Virus record (IMG/VR): IMGVR_UViG_3300045988_126281 | DNA: 64,000 nt | Source: a virus | Reading direction: 5' to 3' (one strand) | Shown: piece by piece, positions 5,842-50,124 of the stretch | Numbering within the stretch: the first letter of the stretch is position 1 | Layout of the letters: every line of letters begins with the position of its first letter | Made by a program: the position numbers and the translations under genes | The notes under the pieces: model-generated | Databases searched by the model: none | What the model saw: only the letters and a program-made list of their open reading frames with translations | What the model was told of the DNA's origin: nothing

Positions 5842-6687
5842 TCAATTTCGTGGGTCAAATGTATCTATAAACAATGTGCTTCTAAATAATTTAGAAGCAT
5901 TGCTAGCATCTACATTATCACCAATAATACTTGCTTTAGCTTTATCTTTAAGAATACTCCATTGATAATAAGGATTAGTACCGTATTGAGAAGCAGCAAG
6001 ATTGAATACAGGATGCTTATAACCTCTACAAAGCATTTTATAAATACAATAATATCCAAGTGCTTCTATAAGTAAACCGTTATTAGGAATAAAAGGAAGT
6101 TCAGTATTATAATTATTGCTTTCATAAGTTTTAATAGCATCATATTCAACAACAATATAATTAGCATCATAATCAAGTTCAATAGTTTTACAATCTACTA
6201 AAATATAATGTTTAGCACAATTATAATTTCCAACAATATCAGCGACATTATATCTAGCAGGATAATCTTTGCTATTAACTCTTACAGCAATACTTCCAAT
6301 AGATTCATCTTGATTAGGAACTAAATGGTTGTCAAGAGTACTTGGGGTAACACTGGAATCAAGGTGTCCATCAGCAGATTCATCTTCCCTGCCTGTAAAG
6401 GAATTGCCACATCGACTTTGTTGACCGCCCGATATAACATCAACTTCACAACCATTTTCATCAAATACTTTAAGATTAGTACATTCTAAATCACAATCAC
6501 TTTTAGCAAATCTATTCCTAACAGTAAGTTTACGTCTTTTTCTTACAGTAGGAGTAACTTTAAGTTGCTCCATAGCATCAATACACCAAGCAGCAACTCG
6601 TGGTATCCAATCACTATCTCCAGGATTAAAGTCATTATCAATTTTAGCGATAATCCTTTCAATGGTGGTATATCTTTTGTTTTCCAT
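5842..6687 (-). CDS. Hypothetical protein
   Basis: 281-aa ORF, same strand as the structural module. Confidence 0.6.
   Translation of the reverse strand: MENKRYTTIERIIAKIDNDFNPGDSDWIPRVAAWCIDAMEQLKVTPTVRKRRKLTVRNRFAKSDCDLECTNLKVFDENGCEVDVISGGQQSRCGNSFTGREDESADGHLDSSVTPSTLDNHLVPNQDESIGSIAVRVNSKDYPARYNVADIVGNYNCAKHYILVDCKTIELDYDANYIVVEYDAIKTYESNNYNTELPFIPNNGLLIEALGYYCIYKMLCRGYKHPVFNLAASQYGTNPYYQWSILKDKAKASIIGDNVDASNASKLFRSTLFIDTFDPRN
6389..6405 (+). repeat. Dispersed motif copy CTGCCTGTAAAGGAATT (inside a CDS)
   Basis: Exact consensus copy read directly from the sequence. Confidence 0.8.
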
Positions 6688-35294: not shown

Positions 35295-35771
35295 TTAAAT
35301 ATTAATTCCAGCAGAAGTAATTTCTGGATTAAGTTCTATAACAACAAATTTAGCATCTGCTAAACTAACGTTAGAAATAAAATTATATTTATCAATAACT
35401 TTAATAGTTCCATTAGGAATACATCTTATTATATGTCTATCTAATAAACAATTAATAGCTCTATAATAAGTTGTTTTAGATTTACCATAAAAGTTTACAG
35501 CAGCTTTAACAATCTCATCTTGAACCATTTGTTTATTATTATAAACACACCAATAAATAGCAGTAAGGCATTCTCTTTCAGCTTTAGGAAGTTCAAGGGT
35601 ACAAGTGAATATTTTACAAAGATTAAGAAATTTAATATCTATATCACTATTCCCTTTAGATTTAGTATTATCACAAACAAACTTAACTATTTCTTCATCT
35701 TGAACAAAATGTGAAGATTCAAAATCAGTATAAGTTTTATGACCAGTTCTATCATCAACATTAAGATTCAT
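35295..35771 (-). CDS. Hypothetical protein (first gene of the leftward block)
   Basis: 158-aa ORF. Confidence 0.5.
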   Translation of the reverse strand: MNLNVDDRTGHKTYTDFESSHFVQDEEIVKFVCDNTKSKGNSDIDIKFLNLCKIFTCTLELPKAERECLTAIYWCVYNNKQMVQDEIVKAAVNFYGKSKTTYYRAINCLLDRHIIRCIPNGTIKVIDKYNFISNVSLADAKFVVIELNPEITSAGINI

Positions 35772-35855
35772 TATATCATAACTTTTACAATTTCTGCAAC
35801 TAATATACGCATTTTTTGTAAAAATTCAAATAATGTTTATATTAGTCTTAGTAAT

Positions 35856-35873
35856 CCTGCCTGTAAAGGAATT
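35856..35873 (+). repeat. Dispersed motif copy cctgcctgtaaaggaatt in the divergent promoter region
   Basis: Exact core copy read directly. Confidence 0.8.
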
Positions 35874-35906
35874 GTTATATTTAATGATATTATTATACCT
35901 TATGAT

Positions 35907-36554
35907 ATGATTAATAAAACTGAAATAAAATTTACTGCCTTTAGTATTACTTCTGTTCGTGCTGAACAAAAATCAGAAGATAATAATGCAACTCCTAAAT
36001 TTAGAATTAATACTGATAAAAAAGGACAAATGTATTTTAGAGTTAAGCAAGAAGAATTTAATCGTCTTGAAAGACTTAGACAAAGTATTGCTTGTACTCC
36101 TTTTGAAGTTAAAGATAAATATCCAAGTTCAATGCCTGTTGATACTGTTATTAATGATGGAATTTATTGTTTAATTGAGCCTTATAAATTATTTGAAATA
36201 GCTGACAGACTTCCAAAGAATTGTTTTAAATATTTTCTTATTCTTTGTAAAGAACTTCTTCCTGATACAAATATTATTACTTTAGTTGGAACAGAAGTTG
36301 CTAAAAAATATGGTTTTGATGTTAGTCATATTCAAAACTATAATGCTATTCTTTGTGATTTGCAAATTATAGTTAGAACTGATGTTCAAAGTACTTTTGT
36401 AATTAATCATAATATTATTTATAAAGGTGACCTTAATAAATTTTCTAAAAACTATAAAGAAATTTATAATGATTCTGTTCCAGAACGTATTAATTATACA
36501 AAGATAAAACTTAGTAATAAAAAAGCTTATGTTAACAAGAATAAAACGGATTAA
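35907..36554 (+). CDS. RepL-like replication initiator paralog 1
   Basis: C-terminal TFVINHNIIYKGDLNKFSKNYKEIY is paralogous to MYVVNHNMIFKGNLEKFIATYNELY of the 37587 ORF. Start moved to an internal ATG at 35907 to avoid overlap with the divergent gene. Confidence 0.5.
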   Translation: MINKTEIKFTAFSITSVRAEQKSEDNNATPKFRINTDKKGQMYFRVKQEEFNRLERLRQSIACTPFEVKDKYPSSMPVDTVINDGIYCLIEPYKLFEIADRLPKNCFKYFLILCKELLPDTNIITLVGTEVAKKYGFDVSHIQNYNAILCDLQIIVRTDVQSTFVINHNIIYKGDLNKFSKNYKEIYNDSVPERINYTKIKLSNKKAYVNKNKTD

Positions 36555-37028: not shown

Positions 37029-37274
37029 CCTCATAATTGTAATAAATATACTATAACACATTCAAGTCGTCTTAGTCGTGATGATTAAGGCGGCTTTTAT
37101 TATGCTTATGAATATATAAAAATAAAATTATTAAAATTATAAAATTTAGTTTATAATAGTCTTAATGAAGATTATAACAAACTTCTGATTATCTTTCATT
37201 AGAAAAGATTAATCTTGTTATAGATGGTTCTGATTAGTGCGCTTGCCCTTGTTCAGTAGCAGATTATTACAACC

Positions 37275-37395
37275 CTGCCCGTAGAGGAATGAGCTATTGC
37301 AATTCCAATTGTTGCTTATGGTAAGATTCATAATGATATTTGTTGTAATCATTATCTTATTAGTGGGCAAGATGATGCCATTCCTTTACAGGCAG
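37275..37395. repeat. Inverted pair of the motif (ctgcccgtagaggaatg ... cattcctttacaggcag) bracketing ~90 nt of non-coding DNA
   Basis: Read directly. Confidence 0.7.
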
Positions 37396-37586
37396 TTGAA
37401 TCCAATGATACTTAGTGTGCCTTTGAACCTAATGTTATTAAATATGTTAATGATTTTGTTTGATATAATACTGGTATATCTATAAGATATAATACTGTCA
37501 TATAGTTAAGTGATTGATTATTAATATATTAGAAAATCATAACTATGAGCTGGAGTTCACAATTATGAATTTTTTAGTGTCGTTGT

Positions 37587-38195
37587 GTGAACTATATCCG
37601 ACAAATTACTATTTTTGTGAAGTATGATTCATTCTTTAATAATTTAATTATGGAGTTTAAGTTTAATAAAAGAGTACTTAAAGGTTATGGTATTAAAGTT
37701 AGTGCTAAAGCGGTTAAAGAAGCATCTAAAATAATGCCTACAACTTTTAATTTAGATTATGATTCTGCTACTAAATCTTGTTTTGATGAAGTTGTTAATG
37801 GCTATATGATTAGTCTTAATAAAGATTATGTTAAGAAAGAACCATATAGTATTATTAGCATTGCTTTAACTTTAAACTTTCCTAAACTTTCTAGACCTGC
37901 ATTGCTTCTTGTTGGTTATATTGCTTCTAAAATTCAATTTGATTCAAACTATATTGAGCTTAAAGAAAAAGATTTTGCTGGATATTCTGGACTATGTAAT
38001 AAATCTTTCTTTGATGGAATAAAAGAACTTGTTGATATTAAAGTTCTCGCTATTACTAATCGTAAATCTATGTATGTTGTTAATCATAATATGATATTTA
38101 AAGGTAATCTTGAAAAGTTTATTGCTACTTATAATGAACTTTATGGAAAACCTTGTGTTGTTGATGAGCAAGGACGTATTGTTATTGATAAATAA
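37587..38195 (+). CDS. RepL-like replication initiator (start possibly at 37650, MEFKFNK)
   Basis: Overall resemblance to firmicute and crAss RepL; paralogous to 35907..36554. Confidence 0.6.
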   Translation: MNYIRQITIFVKYDSFFNNLIMEFKFNKRVLKGYGIKVSAKAVKEASKIMPTTFNLDYDSATKSCFDEVVNGYMISLNKDYVKKEPYSIISIALTLNFPKLSRPALLLVGYIASKIQFDSNYIELKEKDFAGYSGLCNKSFFDGIKELVDIKVLAITNRKSMYVVNHNMIFKGNLEKFIATYNELYGKPCVVDEQGRIVIDK

Positions 38196-38405: not shown

Positions 38406-38556
38406 AGAAATGATGGGACAGGTGGAATTGATAATTCTGCTTGTCCTATTTCTTTTATTGTTGTTTGTGATGAAGTTTGTTATGTTATTTGTTTTGCTGA
38501 TTATAATTTTCTTTGAGGAAAAATCGAAAAGCTGCTCGCTGTATTATTGTCATAAT

Positions 38557-38700
38557 CTAGTATTATTCTAATACTAGATTATTCTAATATAATATAATAT
38601 AATATATAAATAAATATATAATATAATATAAATAATATATTATTATATAATAATATTATATAAATATAATATTATTATAATGTAGTATTGGATAAAGACC
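38557..38700. repeat. Hairpin ctagtatta-ttc-taatactag followed by an irregular (TA/ATA/TAA)n low-complexity tract
   Basis: Read directly; about 140 nt of almost pure A/T with 2-3-nt periodicity. Confidence 0.7.
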
Positions 38701-39440
38701 GAAGTCTTGGTAATAAAGTTTGTAATAAAGTTATAGATTTTATTTATGATAATAATAATGATTTTCTTATAGGTAAATTTAATGATTTTATTTATGTTGA
38801 ATTTATTATTAATAATATAATTTTTAGTTATAGTAAAAATATAATTGAAATATAAGATAAAGTTTATTATAAAATTTATATTAGATTTGAAGTTATTGAT
38901 ATTATTAAAATTAATGTTAAAAATAGAATTAAAAGAAGTAATCATTTTATAGAAGGTAGTTAATGTAATTGAATTTAAATAAATGGTGTTATTATTAAAT
39001 ATTTTATTATTGATGGAAAATGATATAATCATAGTGCTAATAAAATTTATAATATTTATAATAAAAATATTGTTTTTCTTTGTAATGAAAATGGACATAA
39101 TGATAGAATTAGTCTTTTGTGTGTAAGATAAGATTATATTATAGGAAATGATATTGTTGAAATTTGTGTTTAATTTTGTTGTCAAATTGGTTATAAAGTT
39201 AATAGAAGTAATATTTATTTTTATTGTGTTGTTATTAATAGTGAAGATTATTATAGGCGGAATAAATATATTATTGTTAAAGGTGGCCACCTTATAAGAA
39301 ATTACATTGTTGAATTTAATAATGTAAAATTAAATATAATTATTAATTTTATTGCAATAAGAAATATTAATTGTTTTATTGCTATGAATGATTGTGCTGA
39401 TTATTATGAAATTAAATATATAGTGTGAGTTTAGTTTATT
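38700..39440 (+). other. Non-coding, C-depleted region (about 2% C against about 15% G on the + strand)
   Basis: About 16 C in about 740 nt counted by eye. Contains GGTGGCCACC palindrome and GGCCACCTTATA[AG]GAA direct repeats at 39285 and 39453. Confidence 0.6.
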
Positions 39441-39519
39441 TGTGTAAGACTGGGCCACCTTATAGGAAGCCCCGGGTGCTTCAATAAGACTTGAAGTCCC
39501 CCGTCAACTTCCATGTGAA

Positions 39520-39529
39520 AACCTCAAAC
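39520..39529 (+). promoter_or_regulatory. Candidate promoter box AACCTCAAAC (copy 1) with downstream TATTATA...TTGG
   Basis: One of four + strand copies, all upstream of GC-enriched genes. Confidence 0.4.
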
Positions 39530-39643
39530 TTGGCTACTATTATATTCTTGGAATTACTGAAATAATTAATTCTATCACATCAGATGATGATACTTATTCT
39601 GATGTTGATGTTTCTTTCGTATCTACTAAATCAAGTTTATCTT

Positions 39644-40117
39644 ATGAAAACTCTTGATTCTCTAACAGTTGCTCTTGCTGAAGGCACAAGAGTTACTGTT
39701 CGTAATGGCAAACTCTTTGTCATTACTAATGCCGAACTGCCTTCTGTTAATGACACTATTTGTACTGCGTTTCTTGATAAGAAGCAGTTTGTGTCTGCTC
39801 TTCTTAAGCACAGTGGTGCTTCCAAGTTTGTTAATGACAAACTCATAGAGGAGCTTGATGTCAAAGTTGGGGACAATTATGTCACTAAACGTGTGTACAA
39901 CGACTATGCTGTTGCTTACGCTGCATCTCATTGCTCCTATGTTCTTCAGCCTACTCTTATGGAAGCTGGAGATACTTATGACAAAGCAAACGGAGAACTT
40001 GGAGTTATCGAAACAAGTTATATCAAGTTTGACATTGTTAGTGTTGAACCTGATGAAGCTATGTCTGCTGCACTTACTAAGTATGCGGCTGCCGAACGTG
40101 ATTTCTTCGGATTCTAA
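39644..40117 (+). CDS. Hypothetical protein, GC-enriched codon usage, C-terminal ...ERDFFGF
   Basis: Start MKTLDSL; clean 158-aa ORF with composition distinct from the AT-rich neighbours. Confidence 0.6.
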   Translation: MKTLDSLTVALAEGTRVTVRNGKLFVITNAELPSVNDTICTAFLDKKQFVSALLKHSGASKFVNDKLIEELDVKVGDNYVTKRVYNDYAVAYAASHCSYVLQPTLMEAGDTYDKANGELGVIETSYIKFDIVSVEPDEAMSAALTKYAAAERDFFGF

Positions 40118-40423: not shown

Positions 40424-40427
40424 GACA

Positions 40428-40462
40428 GTTCTGGTACTAGAGATAGTACCAGAACTTCTTTT
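40428..40462 (+). terminator. Rho-independent terminator
   Basis: 11-bp perfect stem gttctggtact / agtaccagaac, loop agagat, then ttctttt. Confidence 0.7.
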
Positions 40463-40466
40463 ACAA

Positions 40467-40476
40467 AACCTCAAAC
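40467..40476 (+). promoter_or_regulatory. Candidate promoter box AACCTCAAAC (copy 2)
   Basis: aaaacctcaaacttatactattataactttggg, near-identical to copy 1. Confidence 0.4.
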
Positions 40477-40572
40477 TTATACTATTATAACTTTGGGTAT
40501 TAATTCGTTCTGAACCTGTTTTGCTTATGATGATAACAGTTGTGAAAACTCTTATCATCATTCTTTTTATAT

Positions 40573-40582
40573 AACCTCAAAC
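40573..40582 (+). promoter_or_regulatory. Candidate promoter box AACCTCAAAC (copy 3)
   Basis: ataacctcaaacggaaacgattaagatattgg. Confidence 0.35.
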
Positions 40583-40825
40583 GGAAACGATTAAGATATT
40601 GGTAGAAGTAATAGTAACAGTTATTTTTATCTTATAAGGTTTTACTCTTCTCAGCGGCCTTATAATAATATTATGAGAAGATACTTATAAACTTATGTGT
40701 GGAATAATAAGTATTAATTTAGAAACACTTATGGTTCAAGTATTGCCTTTACTTGTGTTACAGCCATTATCATGCGAAAAGGCAAAATGGCACTATCTTA
40801 TGGTAGTGCCATTATTTTTTATATT

Positions 40826-41503: not shown

Positions 41504-41542
41504 TCTCATAATACTTATAATGTAACTTATAGATATAATAAT

Positions 41543-41625
41543 ACTGTCAATAGTAGTTTTGTAACATTAGGTTTCGACTAAAATAAATTTTAGTCTTAAA
41601 TTTAATACAGACTACTATTGACAAT
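41543..41625 (+). promoter_or_regulatory. Nested inverted repeats: outer actgtcaatagtagt / actactattgacaat, inner gactaaaa / ttttagtc
   Basis: Read directly; intergenic between the 40907 and 41716 genes. Confidence 0.5.
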
Positions 41626-41715
41626 ATTATTTATATTTACTATTTTTGACACAAACAAACCACGAGTGAGTTTGTTAATAATAAGACTTCTATTAATCAA
41701 AAACAATTTCAAATT

Positions 41716-42913: not shown

Positions 42914-42973
42914 GGTTGTTTTATTAGTATTATAACTATTACTCGTTGTGAAATGCGTAATAGTTTTCTTTAT

Positions 42974-43127
42974 GGAAGTATCGTTTGAATTGGCAAGACT
43001 ATTAATAAATGAAACAATTATTACAATAGTAATATTAATATTCAAGATAAGTATTGAGTTAGGTTACAAAACTTTTCCGGCCATTCTCATTTAATTAATA
43101 ATATAGGTTCGAATCCTGTTACTTCCA
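42974..43127 (+). ncRNA. tRNA-like element: clear 3' half (T-arm ATAGG-TTCGAAT-CCTGT, acceptor TACTTCC) pairing with GGAAGTA about 150 nt upstream. Possibly an intron-containing or degenerate tRNA.
   Basis: The acceptor-stem complementarity is 7/7 and a D-arm-like GTTT-GAATTGGCA-AGAC is present. The anticodon arm could not be folded cleanly. Confidence 0.25.
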
Positions 43128-43147
43128 CAAATTAAAATTTTAATATT

Positions 43148-43369
43148 ATGAATGACGAAAATAAAAAAGCATTTTGTGATTTAATGTCATTTCAAATTCC
43201 TATTCTTATTTGGATTATGACATTAATTGTAGCACTTAGTGGTGCTGGAAATTATATGAATGCTAATAATATTTCATTTTTTCCTATTGGGATTTTTATA
43301 ATTCTTATTGGAATAATAAATCTTATTGGTATTGTTCTTGTTATTAAAAATCACGATAAAAATATATAA
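43148..43369 (+). CDS. Small integral membrane protein (two TM helices)
   Basis: 73 aa: ILIWIMTLIVALSGAG; FFPIGIFIILIGIINLIGIVLVI. Confidence 0.45.
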   Translation: MNDENKKAFCDLMSFQIPILIWIMTLIVALSGAGNYMNANNISFFPIGIFIILIGIINLIGIVLVIKNHDKNI

Positions 43370-43381
43370 AACTTTAATATT

Positions 43382-43454
43382 GACTTCATAGCTCAGTTGG
43401 TAGAGCATAACACTTTTAATGTTAGGGTCACGAGTTCGAGCCTCGTTGGAGTCA
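43382..43454 (+). tRNA. tRNA-Lys (anticodon TTT)
   Basis: Cloverleaf folded by hand: acceptor GACTTCA/TGGAGTC, D-arm AGCTCAGTTGGTAGAGC, anticodon stem-loop TAACA-CTTTTAA-TGTTA, T-arm ACGAG-TTCGAGC-CTCGT. Confidence 0.85.
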
Positions 43455-43532
43455 CAGCACTAATTCTTTGTGCTATTATGGTTTTATGTGTTTCTCAAGT
43501 ACTATCTGTTGTGAAACACATAGTACTTTCTT

Positions 43533-43619
43533 GCTTTGGTGGTGAAATTGGTAGACACGAGGGACTTAAAATCCCTTGGACTGAAATAGTCCTTACGGGT
43601 TCGATTCCCGTCCGAAGCA
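43533..43619 (+). tRNA. tRNA-Leu (anticodon TAA), type II with long variable arm
   Basis: Acceptor GCTTTGG/CCGAAGC, anticodon stem-loop AGGGA-CTTAAAA-TCCCT, variable arm GGACT-GAAAT-AGTCC, T-arm ACGGG-TTCGATT-CCCGT. Confidence 0.85.
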
Positions 43620-43626
43620 CTAATTT

Positions 43627-43697
43627 TGAAGTATGGTGTAATGGCAGCACAAGAGATTTTGGTTCTCTTTGTAGAGGTTCAAATCCTCTTACTTCAA
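43627..43697 (+). tRNA. tRNA-Gln (anticodon TTG)
   Basis: Perfect 7-bp acceptor TGAAGTA/TACTTCA, anticodon stem-loop AGAGA-TTTTGGT-TCTCT, T-arm GAGGTTCAAATCCTC. Confidence 0.8.
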
Positions 43698-44021
43698 CAA
43701 AACGTTGTGATAACGAATCCAAGATATTTTTCAAAGTCAATTGTTGTCATAGAACTATTAATGAATTTGTAAGTATCCTTTATCTTGGAAATTCAATTAT
43801 TGCAGTAATTGAATTTGGTAATGCTGGTATTAATAAGATTACACCATATCTTTATTAATATCAGCATTATTTTTGTTTGTTATTTCAATTCTTTGATCAC
43901 TTCCTTGGCTTCTGAATAACTTTTATTCTATAAATGATAAACTATATCACTTATAGTAATAACATCATCAGAAAGCCTGTAAATCGAGTAAAAATAATAA
44001 AATTTATAAATTTTTAATATT

Positions 44022-47269: not shown

Positions 47270-47771
47270 GCGGAATAAAGATAATAATAATTTTCAAGAT
47301 AATATTATTAGCAAACTCCCTGTAAAAGAATGCAATTACTGTCTTGGCTGTCCTGCTCGTCTTTATACTCCTAATGAATTTATAGTTTATGGTAAAGGAA
47401 ATGTTTGTTCTCCAATAATGTTTGTTATTTATGATTCTTATAAACATAAACAAGACAATATTAAATTACTTAAAGATGTTTATCAAGAATTATTTCAAAA
47501 AGATATTTTTGAAGAACATTATGTTACTACTGCTGTTAAATGCGAATGTCAAAATGAAATACTAATGCAAAGTTTTATTAATTGCAGAAATTTACTTTGT
47601 GACGAAATTACAAGTATTATGCCTAATAAAATAATTGTTGTTGGTAACATTCGTATTAATTTTGGTGATAAATATAAAATATATTATATTCCTAATATTT
47701 ATTCTTTACTATATGGAGAGAAAAATATTGCTAAATTTAAAGAACGATTATTAGAAGCAATTTATGATTAA
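47262..47771 (+). CDS. Possible family-4-type uracil-DNA glycosylase
   Basis: Cys cluster CNYCLGCPARL and GKGNVCSPIMFVIYDS, loosely resembling the Cx2C...GE[AG]PG core of UDG family 4. Confidence 0.35.
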   Translation: MGKRNKDNNNFQDNIISKLPVKECNYCLGCPARLYTPNEFIVYGKGNVCSPIMFVIYDSYKHKQDNIKLLKDVYQELFQKDIFEEHYVTTAVKCECQNEILMQSFINCRNLLCDEITSIMPNKIIVVGNIRINFGDKYKIYYIPNIYSLLYGEKNIAKFKERLLEAIYD

Positions 47772-50124
47772 TATTTGGTGCTATGATGTAGAGATATTAC
47801 CAAATTTCTTTAGTATAACATTTGTTAATCTTAGTTCATATACTAAAACTTTTAAAGATAGTTGTAATATTACTATTAAAAAAGGTAAAGAAAAACGTAT
47901 TCCAATTCCACTTACTGAAAAATATAAAGTTAGTGATATTAAAACAATGCTGGATTCAGTTGAATCTAAAACGTTTTGGATTTCAGATTTTAACGATAGT
48001 CAATTACTTACTATGATTGGCTTTATCAATTCGTTACAAGCTAAAAAAGACAGTAATAAAAACGTTTTTACGCACTGTTATGGTTACAACTCTGGAGCAT
48101 ACGATAAACTGATGGTTGCTTGCTTGCTGATGTATTACAATATGTTTTCAAGTACTAAAGAACTTATTAGAAAACTTTATGATACAAGTAAAAAGATAAT
48201 TGACCTTCAAGATAATGAAGAAATATCAAGAAAAGATTATTATCTTGATTCTCTTCGTAAATATCCTCTTCCTTATTATGACGTAGATTTAATGAAAGTA
48301 TTTGCACTTAATAAGGCTGGAACTATTATTGGTTCTGATGGAAAAAAATCTTATTATGGTAAAAGTCTTAAGCAAACAAGTATTAATCTTAAATGGTATG
48401 AACTTCTTGAATATGAACTCCCTCCTATTTGTGAAAAAGATGCTGAACTTTATTATAATAATCAACGTTATTCCGGTTTTACTTATGAACAACTTAATAG
48501 TGTTATAGATAAATGGGATAGATTTATGATTCCTGAATATGTTGAACCAACTATGCATTATAATAAAAATGATGTTTTTATTGTATGTGAAATGGCTCGA
48601 TTATATTCTGATGAAATAAAACTTCGTTATTCTATTTCTAATGCTTATGAAGTAAATGTTCTTAACAGTTCTCGTAGTAATGTTGCTGATATTCTTTTTA
48701 CAAAGTTTTATTCTGAATTTTCTAATCTTACTCCAAAACAATGGCAAGGTAAGAAAACAGAAAGACATAGTTATCCTCTTAAAAAAGTAATTTTTGATAA
48801 TATTAAATTTAAAACTAAACCTTTACAAGATTTACTTGAAGAACTTAAGAAAACTACTCTTTATAGTGTTGGCAAAGATGCACTTAATAAAACTATTGTA
48901 ATTGGTAATACTAAATATACTTTAGCTACTGGTGGATTACATAGTCAAGACCCTCCTCGTGTATTAAAAAGCAAACTTATTGAATGCGATCCCTCTACGG
49001 GCAGGAGCCGAGCCGTAGGCGAGGCAATTACTGATTTTAATTGGGATAATTATACTGATGATAGTTATGTGTATATACACGCTGATGTATCAAGTTTTTA
49101 TCCAAGTCTTATGACTGTTTATAAAATTGCTCCTGAGCATCTTGATACTGGTTGCTTTACTAAACTTGTTGGGTGGTTAAGAGATACTCGTGTTAAAGCT
49201 AAACATAGTGAAGAAGATATAATTGATGGTATTCCTAAAGATATTCTTGCACAAGCTCTTAAAATTGTAATTAATTCAATTTATGGAAAACTTGGTTCAG
49301 AATTTGGTAATCTTTTTGATAGATTGGCAGTTCTTAAAGTTACTATTAATGGACAACTTTTTGCATTTATGCTTAGTGAGGAACTTGAACTTAATGATAT
49401 TCCTGTAATTTCTGCTAATACAGATGGTATTGTTGTTAAAGTAAGAAAAGATAAATATTCAACTTTTCAACAAATTTATAAAAATTGGGAAAAATATACT
49501 GGATTAAGTCTTGATGAAGAATTTTATTCTGCTTATATAGATAGAGATATAAATAATTATTTTAGCATTGAACTTAATGGTAAATATACTTATAAAGGAG
49601 ATTTAAATCCTGATATGTATAAAGTAGATTTATCAAAAGGCTATAACGCTCCTATTGTTGCTAAAGCAGCTATTGAATTTTTGGCTCATAATAAACCTGT
49701 TCTTGAAACTCTTTATGAGTGTAAAGATATTCTTGACTTTTGTAAAACACAAAATATCGGAAGACAATTTCATACTGAATTTTATAAAGGTCAAACTAAA
49801 GAAATATTACAAAGACAAATTAGATTTTATGTTTCTATGATTGGAGGAAATTTATTTAAAGTTTCTAAAGAAGGAACTTTGAATAATCTTTGTGCTGGGT
49901 ATAAAGTTAATATTCTTAATACTCTTGATGATACACCAATTGAATTAAGGAATATTAATTATTCTTATTATGCTGATGAAGCATATAAGATTATAGACCC
50001 TATTAAATTAGGTATTAGTCCTAATCAAAAAGGTAATCCAAATACTAAAATTAAATCTGGTAAGTCTTTGCTTAAAAAGAATGCTCAAGCATATTTTAAT
50101 CTTTTTGATGATGAAGAAGATTGA
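47764..50124 (+). CDS. Family B DNA polymerase
   Basis: Motif A DVSSFYPSL (DxxSLYPS), motif B KIVINSIYGKLG (KxxxNSxYG), motif C-like ANTDGIVV. Confidence 0.9.
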   Translation: MINIWCYDVEILPNFFSITFVNLSSYTKTFKDSCNITIKKGKEKRIPIPLTEKYKVSDIKTMLDSVESKTFWISDFNDSQLLTMIGFINSLQAKKDSNKNVFTHCYGYNSGAYDKLMVACLLMYYNMFSSTKELIRKLYDTSKKIIDLQDNEEISRKDYYLDSLRKYPLPYYDVDLMKVFALNKAGTIIGSDGKKSYYGKSLKQTSINLKWYELLEYELPPICEKDAELYYNNQRYSGFTYEQLNSVIDKWDRFMIPEYVEPTMHYNKNDVFIVCEMARLYSDEIKLRYSISNAYEVNVLNSSRSNVADILFTKFYSEFSNLTPKQWQGKKTERHSYPLKKVIFDNIKFKTKPLQDLLEELKKTTLYSVGKDALNKTIVIGNTKYTLATGGLHSQDPPRVLKSKLIECDPSTGRSRAVGEAITDFNWDNYTDDSYVYIHADVSSFYPSLMTVYKIAPEHLDTGCFTKLVGWLRDTRVKAKHSEEDIIDGIPKDILAQALKIVINSIYGKLGSEFGNLFDRLAVLKVTINGQLFAFMLSEELELNDIPVISANTDGIVVKVRKDKYSTFQQIYKNWEKYTGLSLDEEFYSAYIDRDINNYFSIELNGKYTYKGDLNPDMYKVDLSKGYNAPIVAKAAIEFLAHNKPVLETLYECKDILDFCKTQNIGRQFHTEFYKGQTKEILQRQIRFYVSMIGGNLFKVSKEGTLNNLCAGYKVNILNTLDDTPIELRNINYSYYADEAYKIIDPIKLGISPNQKGNPNTKIKSGKSLLKKNAQAYFNLFDDEED
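48989..49027 (-). repeat. Motif copy atccctctacgggcagg plus a GC-rich extension, embedded in frame in the polB CDS
   Basis: The 39-nt GC-rich island encodes DPSTGRSRAVGEA. Its sequence architecture is near-identical to the intergenic element at 44927..44964. Confidence 0.7.

What the first reader, a model, noticed from the sequence alone, without database searches (positions are those of the whole stretch)
38700..39640. Strongly C-depleted non-coding segment with GGCCACCTTATA[AG]GAA direct repeats and a GGTGGCCACC palindrome next to the (TA/ATA)n tract, forming a candidate origin or structured-RNA region
From about 38700 to 39440 the + strand has only about 16 C in about 740 nt, while G is about 15%. 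The one long ORF across it (- strand, 38643..39290) is N/I low-complexity and not credible. The segment ends with two direct repeats (39285..39300, 39453..39468), a perfect 10-bp palindrome at 39282..39291, and hairpins gaagc-cccgggt-gcttc and gaagt-cccccgtca-acttc. It is preceded by a hairpin and ~140 nt of irregular TA/ATA repeats (38557..38700) that could act as a DNA-unwinding element. It sits between the two RepL-like genes and the first rightward GC-enriched gene. A G-less transcript from the - strand or a C-less transcript from the + strand, an R-loop-prone replication origin, or iteron-like initiator binding sites are all possible.
Basis: seen in the sequence. Interest (0 to 1): 0.6.

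Follow-up and report, generated by a model that had tools for sequence, protein, structure and literature searches.

The report
Cytosine-free spacer in crAss-like phages
A roughly 0.9 kb stretch of this crAss-like gut phage has lost nearly all cytosines on one strand; related phages carry the same zone, always ending at one conserved C-rich motif, so it is probably a footprint of recurrent single-strandedness beside the genome end, not a gene or structured RNA.

Summary
**Observation: confirmed.** 38700-39440 has 19 C in 741 nt against 104 G. This is the window-wide minimum (17 C per 740 nt; mean 105, next lowest 60).

**Not an artefact.** Two independent assemblies carry the identical zone.

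**Context.** The window is a crAss-like phage. A + strand C-poor zone of 0.4-1.3 kb follows or overlaps the RepL-like gene in about ten lineages, p-crAssphage included. It ends at a conserved motif pair, CCCC(C/G)GGT… and CCCCCGTCA, whose starts lie 28-29 nt apart, just upstream of the first replication-block gene.

**Anatomy in this clade.**
- The 5' block (hairpin plus TA tract) is 98-99% conserved, more than the flanking genes.
- The 3' block is about 94% conserved.
- The middle evolves freely but stays C-free.

**Coding.** The middle keeps this phage's codon signature on the + strand (T at third position 0.69). It has 8 stops in 249 codons, the rate expected if every C in the phage's own genes became T. 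No ORF on either strand is conserved.

**RNA structure.** None detected; no Rfam hit.

**Best reading (confidence about 0.4).** The middle is dispensable, decaying coding-derived and duplicated DNA. It lies in a position-defined zone of strand-specific cytosine loss, likely from recurrent single-strandedness upstream of a boundary site that probably marks the terminal-repeat edge.

**Rivals.** A selected C-free transcript or R-loop, or an iteron-type origin.

The parts
35907..36554 (+). RepL-like paralog A. The likely true start is inside ORF 35739-36554.
   Evidence: It is a distant paralog of RepL-like B (31% identity over 103 aa, E 2e-10) and of p-crAssphage gp88 (E 7e-6). The first ~56 codons of the ORF overlap the divergent - strand ORF 35295-35771. 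The internal start is my inference.
37587..38195 (+). RepL-like protein B, homologous to p-crAssphage gp88, which is annotated as RepL.
   Evidence: 29% identity, E 7e-12 to gp88. No Pfam or PHROG hit. The AF2 model is poor overall (pLDDT 48), but residues 100-165 have a winged-helix-like topology. No significant similarity to P1 RepL (E 0.13).
38515..38815 (+). 5' conserved block: hairpin, TA/ATA tract and the first ~125 nt of the C-poor zone.
   Evidence: 98.3% and 99.0% identical to L015 and L212, against 80-93.5% for the upstream genes and 83-89% for the downstream gene.
38552..38582 (.). 14-bp-stem hairpin at the left edge of the zone.
   Evidence: ssDNA fold of 38530-38710 gives z -5.2. 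L015 has a compensatory G:C to A:T change at 38559/38574.
38583..38690 (.). Irregular TA/ATA tract with a second hairpin at 38646-38679.
   Evidence: TRF arrays of period 5 to 43. 15-bp stem. One mismatch, at 38613, among three relatives. No period-3 signal (z -0.5).
38710..38733 (+). Two tandem 12-mers, GTAATAAAGTT(T/A), with a further copy at 38467-38478.
   Evidence: L015 has 3+2 copies. This is weak evidence for iteron-like sites.
38557..39440 (+). The cytosine-depleted zone on the + strand.
   Evidence: 19 C against 104 G in 38700-39440. By threshold it spans 38540-39457. GC skew is +0.54 to +0.91.
38682..39428 (+). A single + strand frame with the phage's codon signature, broken by 8 stops: decayed coding-derived sequence.
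   Evidence: T at third position 0.69, C 0.016, G 0.024; real genes have T3 0.58-0.69 and C3 0.02-0.05. Period-3 z = 43. Stops are TAA x5 and TGA x3, or 3.2 per 100 codons. Converting every C to T in the window's own genes gives 3.20 per 100. There is no selection against stops (10.0 expected, P 0.34).
38643..39290 (-). 215-aa N/I/F-rich ORF: the antisense shadow of the + strand periodicity, not a gene.
   Evidence: 70% of its codons start with A, which excludes stops. It is not conserved in L015, which has at most 126 open codons and only 10 shared residues. No family hit.
39104..39392 (+). Two decayed tandem copies (39104-39239 and 39257-39392) of the terminal unit.
   Evidence: Direct repeats at spacings of 153 and 168 nt. 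The alignment of 39104-39239 to 39425-39560, with C collapsed to T, scores 119 against shuffles of 89.9 +/- 6.3.
39282..39300 (+). Internal copy of the lineage motif (G)GCCACCTTATAAGAA, including the GGTGGCCACC palindrome. It holds 4 of the few cytosines in the zone.
   Evidence: Relatives keep 1-4 internal copies with the CCACC cytosines intact. The palindrome is not conserved.
39436..39643 (+). 3' conserved block: the terminal unit, the C5 motif pair, a promoter-like box and the leader up to the start codon.
   Evidence: About 94% identical to L015 and L212.
39470..39482 (+). Motif 1, CCCCGGGTGCTTC (family consensus CCCC(C/G)GGTGCT or GGTCAT).
   Evidence: Present in every lineage except some p-crAssphage strains, which carry GGGGTGGGTCAT instead.
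39497..39506 (+). Motif 2, TCCCCCGTCA. The core CCCCCGTCA is invariant, and this is the only exact CCCCCGT in the window.
   Evidence: Its 9 columns are invariant across 21 lineage representatives. Single occurrence in the window. The starts of motif 1 and motif 2 are 28-29 nt apart.
39534..39551 (+). Conserved box CTACTATTATATTCTTGG, a candidate host-type promoter element for the downstream operon.
   Evidence: Similar ACTATATTATTCTTG boxes lie about 45-60 nt after motif 2 in two other lineages. The promoter assignment is my inference from the Bacteroides TAnnTTTG consensus, recalled from memory.
39644..40117 (+). First gene of the rightward (replication) block.
   Evidence: Non-coding-type conservation ends at ATG 39644. 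The protein is 76-81% identical in relatives. It has no family hit and is not similar to the p-crAssphage SSB gp02.

Best explanation
The segment has three parts.

**The functional parts are the two conserved flanks.**
- Left flank (38515-38815): a hairpin, a TA-rich tract and short 12-mer repeats.
- Right flank (39436-39643): a family-wide pair of C5 motifs, CCCC(C/G)GGT… and CCCCCGTCA. A promoter-like box and the leader of the first replication-block gene follow.

**The ~0.6 kb between them is dispensable DNA.** It is made of decayed coding-derived sequence and decayed tandem copies of the terminal unit.

**Why it is C-free (inferred).**
- The middle sits in a position-defined zone where + strand cytosines are continually lost and not replaced.
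- The most likely cause is that the + strand here is recurrently single-stranded. It could be displaced by an R-loop or by strand-displacement synthesis, or exposed by resection.
- Single-stranded cytosine deaminates to uracil, and copying then fixes C to T on that strand only.
- The process stops at the C5 motif pair, a protein-recognised boundary.
- In p-crAssphage-type genomes that boundary most probably coincides with the left edge of the ~1.9-2.5 kb terminal direct repeat (the concatemer junction).

**Shown:**
- the composition;
- the family-wide conservation and the sharp motif-defined 3' end;
- the coding-type periodicity with unselected stops;
- the unit duplications;
- the lack of a conserved ORF or RNA structure.

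**Inferred:**
- single-strandedness;
- deamination as the cause;
- the terminal-repeat boundary.
For: **1. Position-defined, not gene-defined.**
- The zone always ends at the motif pair.
- Its left end varies by lineage: inside the RepL CDS in p-crAssphage, about 80 nt before the RepL stop in the L019 group, and about 360 nt after RepL in the window.

**2. It acts on functional coding sequence too.** p-crAssphage RepL gp88 inside the zone is intact but avoids C.
- Leu CTN/TTR is 4/5, against 50/20 in PolB.
- Arg CGN/AGR is 1/8.
- C at codon position 1 is 0.053, against about 0.14.

**3. The window zone looks like former coding DNA.**
- It keeps the phage's codon-position signature in one + frame (T at third position 0.69; period-3 z = 43).
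- C is removed from codon positions 1 and 2.
- Stops occur at 3.2 per 100 codons; converting all C to T in the phage's own genes gives 3.20.
- Stops are not selected against.

**4. T absorbs most of the C deficit in this lineage.** T is 44% and A 39.5%, while G stays at 14%.

**5. Sequence is unconstrained but composition is kept.**
- The middle is about 75% identical over its alignable part, with lengths of 620, 962 and 510 nt.
- The flanks are 94-99% identical.
- Unit duplications are ongoing.

**6. Terminal-repeat link.**
- crAssphage genomes are linear, with terminal direct repeats of 1853-2452 bp and a single GC-skew switch about 30 kb from one end (PMC6712665; PMC8862349).
- In p-crAssphage, motif 2 (record position 84) and a purine/pyrimidine inverted repeat (switch near 1982) are about 1.88-1.90 kb apart.
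- That distance is 1773-2610 nt across 22 strains.
- The stretch between them has GC skew 0.06, against 0.25 further downstream.

**7. Feasibility, from my own knowledge.** Single-stranded DNA deaminates about 100-fold faster than duplex DNA. The phages encode RecT, a PD-(D/E)XK nuclease, SSB and UDG (annotations).
Against: - No direct evidence of single-strandedness, R-loops, nicks or termini exists for this phage.
- The terminal-repeat placement rests on length agreement in other strains. For the reference it is off by about 25-45 nt.
- In the window clade the left edge of the zone is abrupt, at the hairpin, rather than a gradient. That fits a unit bounded by two sites better than overshooting resection.
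- A mirror G-poor zone, expected at the other repeat boundary under a resection model, is absent from 39.5-45.5 kb of the window.
- Other lineages are A-rich rather than T-rich in the zone: A 48%, T 30% in L019. Simple C to T conversion does not explain their composition.
- The C-to-T-collapsed codon model fits the zone worse than a composition-matched independent model (-4.92 against -4.78 bits per codon).
- No ancestral gene could be identified.
- In the decayed units, the bases aligned to former C positions are not enriched for T beyond the background composition.
- The polymorphism-spectrum test among 14 p-crAssphage strains was inconclusive.
- crAss002 has the motif but only mild C depletion.
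Confidence: 0.4

Rival explanations
1. The C-free composition is itself selected, because the + strand or its transcript has to be C-free.

A rightward, long untranslated transcript would start in the TA tract and run to the C5 motifs. Three versions are possible:
- (a) The RNA cannot be loaded by Rho, because it has no C-rich rut site. It would then read through into the replication genes.
- (b) The RNA forms a persistent R-loop that primes or activates replication.
- (c) The displaced strand and the RNA stay unstructured as a loading platform.
For: - GC skew of +0.54 to +0.91 is the polarity that favours R-loops and disfavours Rho (the mechanisms are from my own knowledge).
- In the window clade the zone is bounded on both sides by conserved blocks, like a transcription unit.
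- The composition is kept while the sequence drifts.
- The crAss-like phage phi14:2 makes very abundant rightward long non-coding RNAs from long intergenic regions near the start of its genome (10.1101/2020.03.07.982082).
- The genes just downstream of the motif are the most expressed in p-crAssphage metatranscriptomes (PMC10983915).
- The - strand RNA would be almost structure-free (-48.7 kcal/mol for 741 nt).
Against: - The phi14:2 non-coding region is not C-depleted.
- The zone extends into the translated RepL CDS in p-crAssphage, where Rho evasion is unnecessary.
- There are few G clusters of the kind that nucleate R-loops.
- P1 repL/oriL shows no skew.
- The coding-type periodicity and unselected stops look like decay, not design.
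- No promoter was identified above chance (23 sites found, 22.9 expected).
Confidence: 0.25
2. This is a classical initiator-driven origin. The RepL-like winged-helix protein would bind repeated sites (the 16-mer GGCCACCTTATARGAA copies and/or the 12-mers GTAATAAAGTTT). It would then melt the adjacent TA-rich tract. The C depletion would be incidental.
For: - RepL-like genes lie immediately upstream.
- The TA tract with hairpins is the most conserved DNA in the neighbourhood.
- Internal 16-mer copies keep their cytosines in all relatives, with 1-4 internal copies each.
- 12-mer tandem repeats flank the TA tract.
- Ori-Finder and nanopore coverage place p-crAssphage origins around this locus (PMC10983915).
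Against: - The 16-mer copies are 150-230 nt apart, not in helical phase. There are only 2 in the window, and they belong to decaying tandem units.
- The 16-mer is lineage-specific. Only the C5 pair is conserved across the family.
- The cumulative GC-skew minimum is 2.7 kb to the left.
- The 'RepL' identity is weak: no Pfam hit and E 0.13 to P1 RepL. One related phage record annotates the homolog as a transcription regulator.
- This model does not explain the strand-specific C loss.
Confidence: 0.15
3. This is a defence-avoidance segment. A strand without C cannot carry any palindromic restriction site that contains a G:C pair. The zone would therefore be a restriction-proof leading or terminal piece of DNA, exposed before the anti-defence genes act.
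For: - The strict one-strand C depletion removes such sites by construction.
- The location is at or near the probable genome terminus.
- T7 offers a precedent: a leading end is followed by an early anti-restriction gene (annotation).
Against: - Only about 1% of the genome would be protected.
- The zone carries no conserved gene whose early expression it could shield.
- If the terminal repeat starts at the motif, the zone is internal to the right end, not at the leading left end.
Confidence: 0.07
4. The zone is a real protein-coding gene. It would be either the 215-aa - strand ORF or a + strand gene read with recoded stop codons, as in some crAss-like phages.
For: - Very strong period-3 signal (z = 43).
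- The - strand ORF is longer than in any of 5000 shuffles.
- Gene callers call an ORF there.
- In some relatives the last unit forms a 67-103 aa ORF that ends inside motif 1.
- p-crAssphage gp01 is annotated across the motif.
Against: - The - strand ORF is explained by A at 70% of its first codon positions and is not conserved.
- The + frame has TAA x5 and TGA x3, no start codons, and no selection against stops.
- The window encodes no suppressor tRNA, and its other long ORFs are intact under the standard code.
- The small ORFs of relatives are frame-shifted or broken in the window and in close p-crAssphage strains.
- No family hit.
Confidence: 0.03

Closest known systems
Short-repeat arrays flanking the terminal repeat of phage T7 (the CCTAAAG-type array right of the left repeat; the concatemer-junction region)
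   Same: - A non-coding array of degenerate tandem repeats with marked strand asymmetry. T7 positions 201-350 have 4-8 G per 50 nt against 11-20 C.
- It lies directly beside a terminal direct repeat and upstream of the early promoters.
   Different: - T7's array is about 170 bp, built of 7-8-nt units, and only moderately skewed.
- Here the zone is 0.4-1.3 kb, with 150-230-nt units plus coding-derived sequence, almost complete loss of one base, and a conserved C5 motif pair as the boundary.
- Adjacency to the repeat is inferred here, not mapped.
Strand-asymmetric composition of vertebrate mitochondrial DNA and its D-loop region (deamination of the strand left single-stranded during replication)
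   Same: One base is nearly eliminated on one strand, to a few percent. The effect depends on position relative to replication landmarks and acts on coding and non-coding sequence alike. This comparison comes from my own knowledge and was not tested here.
   Different: The mitochondrial effect is genome-wide and graded. Here it is confined to under 1.3 kb and ends at a sharp motif. No replication mechanism is known for these phages.
Transcription-primed or R-loop origins (ColE1 RNA II, T4 oriF/oriG, the mitochondrial light-strand promoter and CSB region)
   Same: A few hundred nucleotides with a G-rich, C-poor non-template strand lie between an upstream AT-rich or promoter region and a defined downstream site.
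   Different: Those origins rely on G clusters and specific RNA folds, and neither is seen here. No transcript or RNase H site is known.
Iteron-type plasmid and phage origins, and the phage P1 repL/oriL lytic replicon
   Same: An initiator-like winged-helix gene lies next to direct repeats and an AT-rich tract.
   Different: - The repeats here are widely spaced and decaying.
- P1 oriL lies inside repL, has no GC skew (-0.05), and its protein is not detectably related.
Long non-coding early RNAs of the crAss-like phage phi14:2 (intergenic regions g004-g006)
   Same: A long non-coding stretch at the head of the rightward early/replication block of a crAss-like genome. In phi14:2 it is transcribed rightward at very high level and its function is unknown.
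   Different: The phi14:2 region has ordinary C content and belongs to another family (Steigviridae). No C5 motif pair was looked for there.

Membership tests
Iteron-type replication origin | Three or more directly repeated initiator-binding sites of about 17-22 bp, closely spaced in helical phase | tested here: not met
   The window has two 16-mer copies 168 nt apart. L015 has five, at spacings of 153-226 nt. The only closely spaced repeats are two tandem 12-mers.
Iteron-type replication origin | An adjacent AT-rich, easily melted region | tested here: met
   38557-38700 is 91% A+T. It carries hairpins (z -5.2) and is 98-99% conserved.
Iteron-type replication origin | A cognate initiator gene next to the repeats that binds them | tested here: inconclusive
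   The RepL-like gene lies upstream. It has no Pfam hit, only a winged-helix-like core in a poor model, and is annotated as a transcription regulator in one record. Binding is not testable here.
P1-type RepL/oriL replicon | Initiator homologous to P1 RepL, with the origin inside or beside its gene | tested here: not met
   BLASTP of P1 RepL against the window protein gives E 0.13. P1 repL has GC skew -0.05.
R-loop / transcription-primed origin | Strong positive GC skew of the non-template strand downstream of a promoter | tested here: inconclusive
   The skew of +0.54 to +0.91 is met. No promoter stands out above chance and G clusters are few.
R-loop / transcription-primed origin | A persistent RNA-DNA hybrid and an RNA-to-DNA transition at a defined site | not testable with these tools
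   This needs DRIP, S1 mapping or 5'-end mapping.
Structured non-coding RNA | A conserved secondary structure with covariation, or a match to a known family | tested here: not met
   No Rfam match. Folding z is -0.8 and -0.2. RNAalifold finds no pairs across 21 representatives of the motif block.
Protein-coding gene | An open frame conserved in relatives, with start and stop and selection against internal stops | tested here: not met
   - The + frame has 8 stops in 249 codons against 10.0 expected.
- The - strand ORF is not conserved.
- The small ORFs of relatives are broken in the window.
Terminal-repeat-adjacent repeat array / concatemer-junction region (T7-like) | Lies at the boundary of the terminal direct repeat | tested here: inconclusive
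   Published repeat lengths are 1853-2452 bp. The motif-to-inverted-repeat distance is 1773-2610 nt in 22 strains and 1879 nt in the reference. The enclosed segment has GC skew 0.06. No termini data exist for this phage.
Terminal-repeat-adjacent repeat array / concatemer-junction region (T7-like) | Non-coding degenerate tandem repeats with strand asymmetry | tested here: met
   T7 comparison.
N4-type hairpin promoters for a virion RNA polymerase | A conserved short hairpin (5-7 bp stem, 3-nt loop) at each early promoter | tested here: not met
   The pairing partners around CCCCCGTCA differ between lineages, and no consensus pairing is found. The loops here are 7-9 nt.

The most novel reading that the evidence does not exclude
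The C-free zone plus the double C5 motif may be a purpose-built, family-wide cis device of Intestiviridae crAss-like phages, not a mutational scar. It would be a 'C-less cassette' marking the concatemer junction and the head of the replication operon. Its one-strand absence of cytosine would be read mechanistically. For example, an RNA or DNA polymerase, primase or helicase would travel a template that needs no C (or G) until it meets the C5 stop or start signal. Alternatively, a transcript that Rho cannot load would couple genome circularisation or concatemer formation to early-gene read-through.
Probability: 0.2. Interest if true: 0.8.

Novelty: new variant of a known kind. Interest (0 to 1): 0.6.

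Why it matters
**Why the family matters.** crAss-like phages are the most abundant viruses of the human gut. Their replication origin, packaging signals and early promoters are still unknown.

**What this analysis adds.** It defines a compact, easily recognisable landmark found in about ten lineages, including prototypical crAssphage and the cultured crAss002. The landmark is a zone with almost no cytosine on one strand that ends at an invariant CCCCCGTCA motif, with a second C5 motif whose start lies 28-29 nt upstream. I found no description of it in the papers searched.

**If it marks the terminal-repeat boundary:**
- It gives a sequence-based way to linearise and orient crAss-like metagenomic genomes.
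- It points to the protein-binding site to test for terminase or initiator binding.

**If the C loss is a deamination footprint:** it is a rare case in a phage where genome mechanics can be read from composition alone.

**Practical points.**
- Gene callers place a spurious 180-215 aa ORF on the - strand here.
- Assemblies often break in this zone.

Tried and rejected
**Homology and family searches**
- *Near-identical DNA among deposited phages:* no match.
- *PHROG and Pfam scans of the ORF, the conceptual + frame and the neighbouring genes:* no hits.
- *Rfam:* no credible hit.
- *Ancestral gene of the zone:* I translated every ORF of the window and relatives after converting C to T, then ran BLASTP. 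Only low-complexity noise came back.
- *Homologs of the last 84-codon frame:* only 67-103 aa gene-caller ORFs from close relatives, not conserved in the window.

**Ideas tested and dropped**
- *Stop-codon recoding:* rejected. The stops are mixed TAA and TGA, and the window has no suppressor tRNA.
- *CCCCCGT as a RepL-associated site at both RepL paralogs:* rejected. The copy near the second paralog belongs to a dispersed 22-nt element found on both strands throughout p-crAssphage.
- *P1 repL/oriL as an analogue with similar skew:* rejected.
- *phi14:2 non-coding RNA region as an analogue with similar composition:* rejected.
- *Mirror G-poor zone downstream in the window, predicted by a resection model:* not found.

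**Inconclusive or unavailable**
- *Polymorphism spectrum among 14 p-crAssphage strains, to separate mutation bias from selection:* inconclusive, because a divergent strain spoils the polarisation.
- *Assembled terminal repeats among IMG/VR contigs:* none of the 29 stretches returned lies on a contig that carries the motif twice.
- *The long-read crAssphage record with mapped repeat coordinates (MK415399):* not in the collections.
- *Structure of the RepL-like protein:* the model is too poor for a fold search (pLDDT 48). A profile against PDB gave nothing meaningful.
- *Loose motif scan of viral contigs:* mostly chance hits in GC-rich phages, filtered by upstream C content. One metagenome hit (L214) is a chance match in a GC-rich contig that is not phage-like.
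Full report
**What the window is.**
- The 786-aa ORF at 47764-50124 is a family B DNA polymerase. It is 54% identical to gp16 of prototypical crAssphage (Carjivirus communis, BK010471) and 58% to the best fragment.
- Genes left of about 35.8 kb lie on the - strand; genes to the right lie on the + strand.
- Cumulative GC skew reaches its minimum at 35.8-36.0 kb.
- So the window is a crAss-like phage of the Intestiviridae type, with a genome of about 90.2 kb.
- The finding lies 2.7-3.5 kb to the right of the point where the two gene blocks diverge.

- 38700-39440 contains 19 C, 104 G, 293 A and 325 T.
- No other 740-nt window of the 64 kb comes close: the minimum is 17 C, the mean 105 and the next independent minimum 60.
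- GC skew is +0.54 to +0.91.
- The same phage was assembled independently from two ENA samples, with 0 and 2 mismatches over 5.9 and 8.2 kb including the zone. The composition is therefore not an assembly artefact.

**It is a family-wide feature.**
- The ORF at 37587-38195 is a homolog of p-crAssphage gp88, annotated RepL (29% identity, E 7e-12). 35739-36554 is a distant paralog.
- I fetched 42 loci around RepL homologs from IMG/VR and further loci by motif.
- In p-crAssphage and in about ten lineages in all, a + strand C-poor stretch of 0.4-1.3 kb follows or overlaps the RepL-like gene.
- In these lineages it ends at the same pair of motifs. Motif 1 is CCCC(C/G)GGT(G/C)(C/A)T, replaced by GGGGTGGGTCAT in many p-crAssphage strains. 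Motif 2 is CCCCCGTCA. Their starts lie 28-29 nt apart.
- In a 21-representative alignment the nine CCCCCGTCA columns are invariant.
- In the window the motifs are at 39470-39482 and 39497-39506. This is the only exact CCCCCGT in 64 kb.
- The cultured phage crAss002 carries ATACCCCCGTCAAG about 220 nt upstream of the first gene of its replication block, with only mild C depletion upstream.
- The left end of the zone is not tied to genes. It starts 146 nt into the RepL CDS in p-crAssphage, about 80 nt before the RepL stop in the L019 group, and after two small ORFs and a hairpin in the window.

**Anatomy within the window's own clade.** I aligned the window with two relatives, L015 and L212.

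| Segment | Coordinates | Identity to relatives |
|---|---|---|
| Upstream genes | left of 38515 | 80-93.5% |
| 5' block (hairpin, TA tract, first ~125 nt of zone) | 38515-38815 | 98.3-99.0% |
| Middle | 38816-39435 | ~75% over the alignable part; lengths 620, 962 and 510 nt |
| 3' block (terminal unit, motif pair, leader) | 39436-39643 | ~94% |
| Downstream gene | from 39644 | 83-89% |

- The 5' block is the best-conserved DNA in the neighbourhood.
- Its first hairpin (38552-38582) carries a compensatory G:C to A:T change in L015.
- As ssDNA the tract folds far better than shuffles (z -5.2).
- The middle stays C-poor in all three genomes.
- The flanks are therefore the constrained elements. 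In the middle only the composition is constrained.

**What the middle is made of.**
- *Decayed tandem copies.* Its last ~350 nt are decayed tandem copies, 153 and 168 nt apart, of the terminal unit. 39104-39239 aligns to 39425-39560 with a C-to-T-collapsed score of 119, against shuffles of 89.9 +/- 6.3.
- *Copy number in relatives.* Relatives have 1-4 internal copies of the lineage-specific CCACCTTATAGGAA motif, with its cytosines retained.
- *Recent duplication.* Several p-crAssphage strains carry two complete motif blocks about 360 nt apart.
- *Period-3 signal.* The zone has a very strong three-base periodicity in one + strand frame starting at 38682 (z = 43). T at the third position is 0.69, C 0.016 and G 0.024.
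- *This is the phage's codon signature.* Real genes of the window and of p-crAssphage have T3 0.58-0.69, C3 0.02-0.05 and G3 0.03-0.07. Truly non-coding pieces, such as the TA tract and 41504-41715, have no periodicity.
- *Where C is lost.* In the zone C is missing from codon positions 1 and 2 (0.048 and 0.016), against about 0.14-0.17 in genes.
- *Stops.* The frame holds 8 stops in 249 codons (TAA x5, TGA x3), or 3.2 per 100. Converting every C to T in the window's own long genes gives 3.20 per 100. The number is no lower than position-specific composition predicts (10.0 expected, P 0.34). Nothing selects against stops.
- *Phase shifts.* L015 has the same local periodicity, with three phase shifts.
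- *The - strand ORF.* The 215-aa ORF exceeds all 5000 shuffles. This is only because 70% of its codons begin with A, the complement of the + strand T3. It is not conserved in the closest relative.
- *Small + strand ORFs.* Those called in relatives (67-103 aa, ending inside motif 1) and p-crAssphage gp01 (ending in motif 2) are broken in the window and in close p-crAssphage strains.

I conclude that the middle is coding-derived DNA that no longer codes. I could not identify the ancestral gene. The C-to-T-collapsed codon model fits only partly.

**The zone acts on live genes too.** In p-crAssphage most of RepL gp88 lies inside the zone and is intact, but its codon choice avoids C.

| Measure | RepL gp88 in the zone | Comparison |
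|---|---|---|
| Leu CTN/TTR | 4/5 | PolB 50/20 |
| Arg CGN/AGR | 1/8 | PolB 12/17 |
| C at codon position 1 | 0.053 | other genes ~0.14 |

A pressure that follows position rather than function, and that stops at a fixed site, is most simply a regional strand-specific mutational bias.

**No evidence for RNA structure.**
- The zone folds no better than dinucleotide shuffles as + or - strand RNA (z -0.8 and -0.2).
- Rfam has nothing.
- RNAalifold predicts no pair for the conserved motif block across 21 representatives.
The sequence is conserved, which points to a protein or DNA site.
- A further box (CTACTATTATATTCTTGG, 39534-39551) is shared with two other lineages. It may be the host-type promoter of the downstream operon (inference).

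**Link to the genome ends.**
- Long-read studies show that crAssphage genomes are linear, with terminal direct repeats of 1853 bp (reference) to 2452 bp. They have a single internal GC-skew switch about 30 kb from one repeat (PMC6712665; PMC8862349). That places the repeat at this locus.
- In the reference, motif 2 is at record position 84. A purine-rich/pyrimidine-rich inverted repeat switches strand bias near position 1982.
- By an automatic criterion the two are 1879 nt apart in the reference and 1773-2610 nt apart in 22 strains. This matches the published range.
- The segment between them has GC skew 0.06, against 0.25 further downstream.
- I therefore infer that the repeat runs from about the motif pair to that inverted repeat. 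The C-free zone would be the last unique DNA before the right-hand repeat copy, or, in concatemers and circles, the DNA just upstream of the junction.
- This is an inference from lengths in other strains.
- In the window a 21-nt inverted repeat at 41537-41631 lies about 2.05 kb after the motif. It is a candidate for the other boundary.

**How it most likely works.**
- *Proposal.* The + strand between the left block and the C5 pair is repeatedly exposed as single-stranded DNA. The cause could be an R-loop behind polymerases that pause or stop at the motif, nick-primed strand displacement, or resection at the repeat boundary.
- *Consequence.* Cytosines on the exposed strand deaminate, and the change is fixed as C to T. 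Dispensable sequence there loses essentially all C. Essential sequence keeps only the cytosines it needs: RepL codons, the CCACC of the lineage motif, and the C5 pair.
- *What fits.* The one-strand effect with normal G, the sharp motif-defined end, the independence from gene content, the coding signature with unselected stops, and, in this lineage, the shift of the missing C mostly into T.
- *What does not fit.* See the evidence-against list: the abrupt left edge in this clade, the A-rich zones of other lineages, no mirror zone, an inconclusive polymorphism test, and no direct evidence of single-strandedness.
- *Main rival.* The C-free composition is selected, as a Rho-proof or R-loop-forming transcript or an unstructured strand. 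The bounded, unit-like shape of the zone in this clade and the phi14:2 non-coding RNAs favour it. The overlap with a translated gene, and the normal composition of the phi14:2 region, count against it.
- *Classical iteron origin.* It cannot be excluded for the conserved 5' block, but it does not explain the composition.

**Comparison with known systems.**
- The nearest analogue I could check is the strand-asymmetric short-repeat array next to the T7 terminal repeat. It is much shorter and only moderately skewed.
- P1 repL/oriL is not an analogue.
- I found no description of the C-free zone or the C5 motif pair in the crAss literature I could search.

**Verdict.**
- The coding and structured-RNA readings are rejected.
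- The origin and R-loop readings remain possible but unproven.
- The best-supported account is a mutational (or compositional) strand-specific zone bounded by a conserved site at the probable terminal-repeat edge.
- It is a new variant of a known kind of phage cis-region. It gives directly testable predictions for where crAss-like genomes end and where their early and replication programme starts.

Noticed in passing
L001/L204 (BK010471 record positions 6027, 10174, 16631, 18156, 35846, 39091, 42683, 50977, 51405, 58520, 58726): p-crAssphage carries a dispersed 22-nt element, GACCCCCCGT(A/G)GAGGATGGA. At least 11 copies lie on both strands in 70 kb, mostly inside protein-coding genes, including the giant RNA polymerase gene. 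It shares the CCCCCGT core with motif 2. The window has no such copies.
   Followed up: partly
L001:1735-2330 (BK010471 record coordinates): A ~215-nt G/A/T-rich, C-poor stretch (GC skew +0.78) is followed directly by a C/T-rich, G-poor stretch (skew -0.54). Together they form an imperfect purine/pyrimidine inverted repeat in a non-coding gap. Its distance from motif 2 matches published terminal-repeat lengths.
   Followed up: partly
window 38559 and 38574: The hairpin 38552-38582 shows a compensatory double change (G:C in the window and L212, A:T in L015) inside an otherwise 98-99% identical block.
   Followed up: yes
window 41537-41557 and 41611-41631: A 21-nt inverted repeat, 95% complementary with 53 nt between the arms, lies in a non-coding gap with no period-3 signal. 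It is about 2.05 kb downstream of motif 2 and is a candidate for the other terminal-repeat boundary or a terminator.
   Followed up: no
window 43382-43698: A cluster of three tRNA genes: Lys(ttt), Leu(taa) and Gln(ttg). None is a suppressor.
   Followed up: yes
window 37030-37586, 40424-40694, 42914-43381: These gaps between ORFs of 150 aa or more have strong coding-type period-3 signals (z 9.9, 12.8 and 22). They probably hold short genes, some matching the 50-149 aa ORFs listed, or further decayed genes.
   Followed up: no
window 35739-35771: The ORFs 35295-35771 (-) and 35739-36554 (+) overlap head to head. The first ~56 codons of the + ORF look like an antisense shadow, so the real divergent intergenic region is probably about 35772-35906. 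That is where cumulative GC skew is lowest.
   Followed up: partly
IMG/VR and metagenome contigs (L004/L012, L016/L148, L056, L058, L064, L068, L069, L073, L074, L080, L082): Many assembled contigs of crAss-like phages begin or end within about 1 kb of the motif pair, often inside the C-poor zone. This suggests assembly breaks caused by the extreme composition, the tandem units or the terminal repeat.
   Followed up: partly
L208:4439-4981 (= window 38643-39185, - strand): The public gene calls for the two ENA assemblies include a 180-aa - strand protein across the zone. This is the spurious shadow ORF.
   Followed up: yes
L214 (JAEIGA010327200.1): The 19-nt query CCACCTTATAGGAAGCCCC also matches a GC-rich contig that is not phage-like. 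There a G5/C5 hairpin follows it and there is no C-poor zone. This is a chance match, not a relative.
   Followed up: yes
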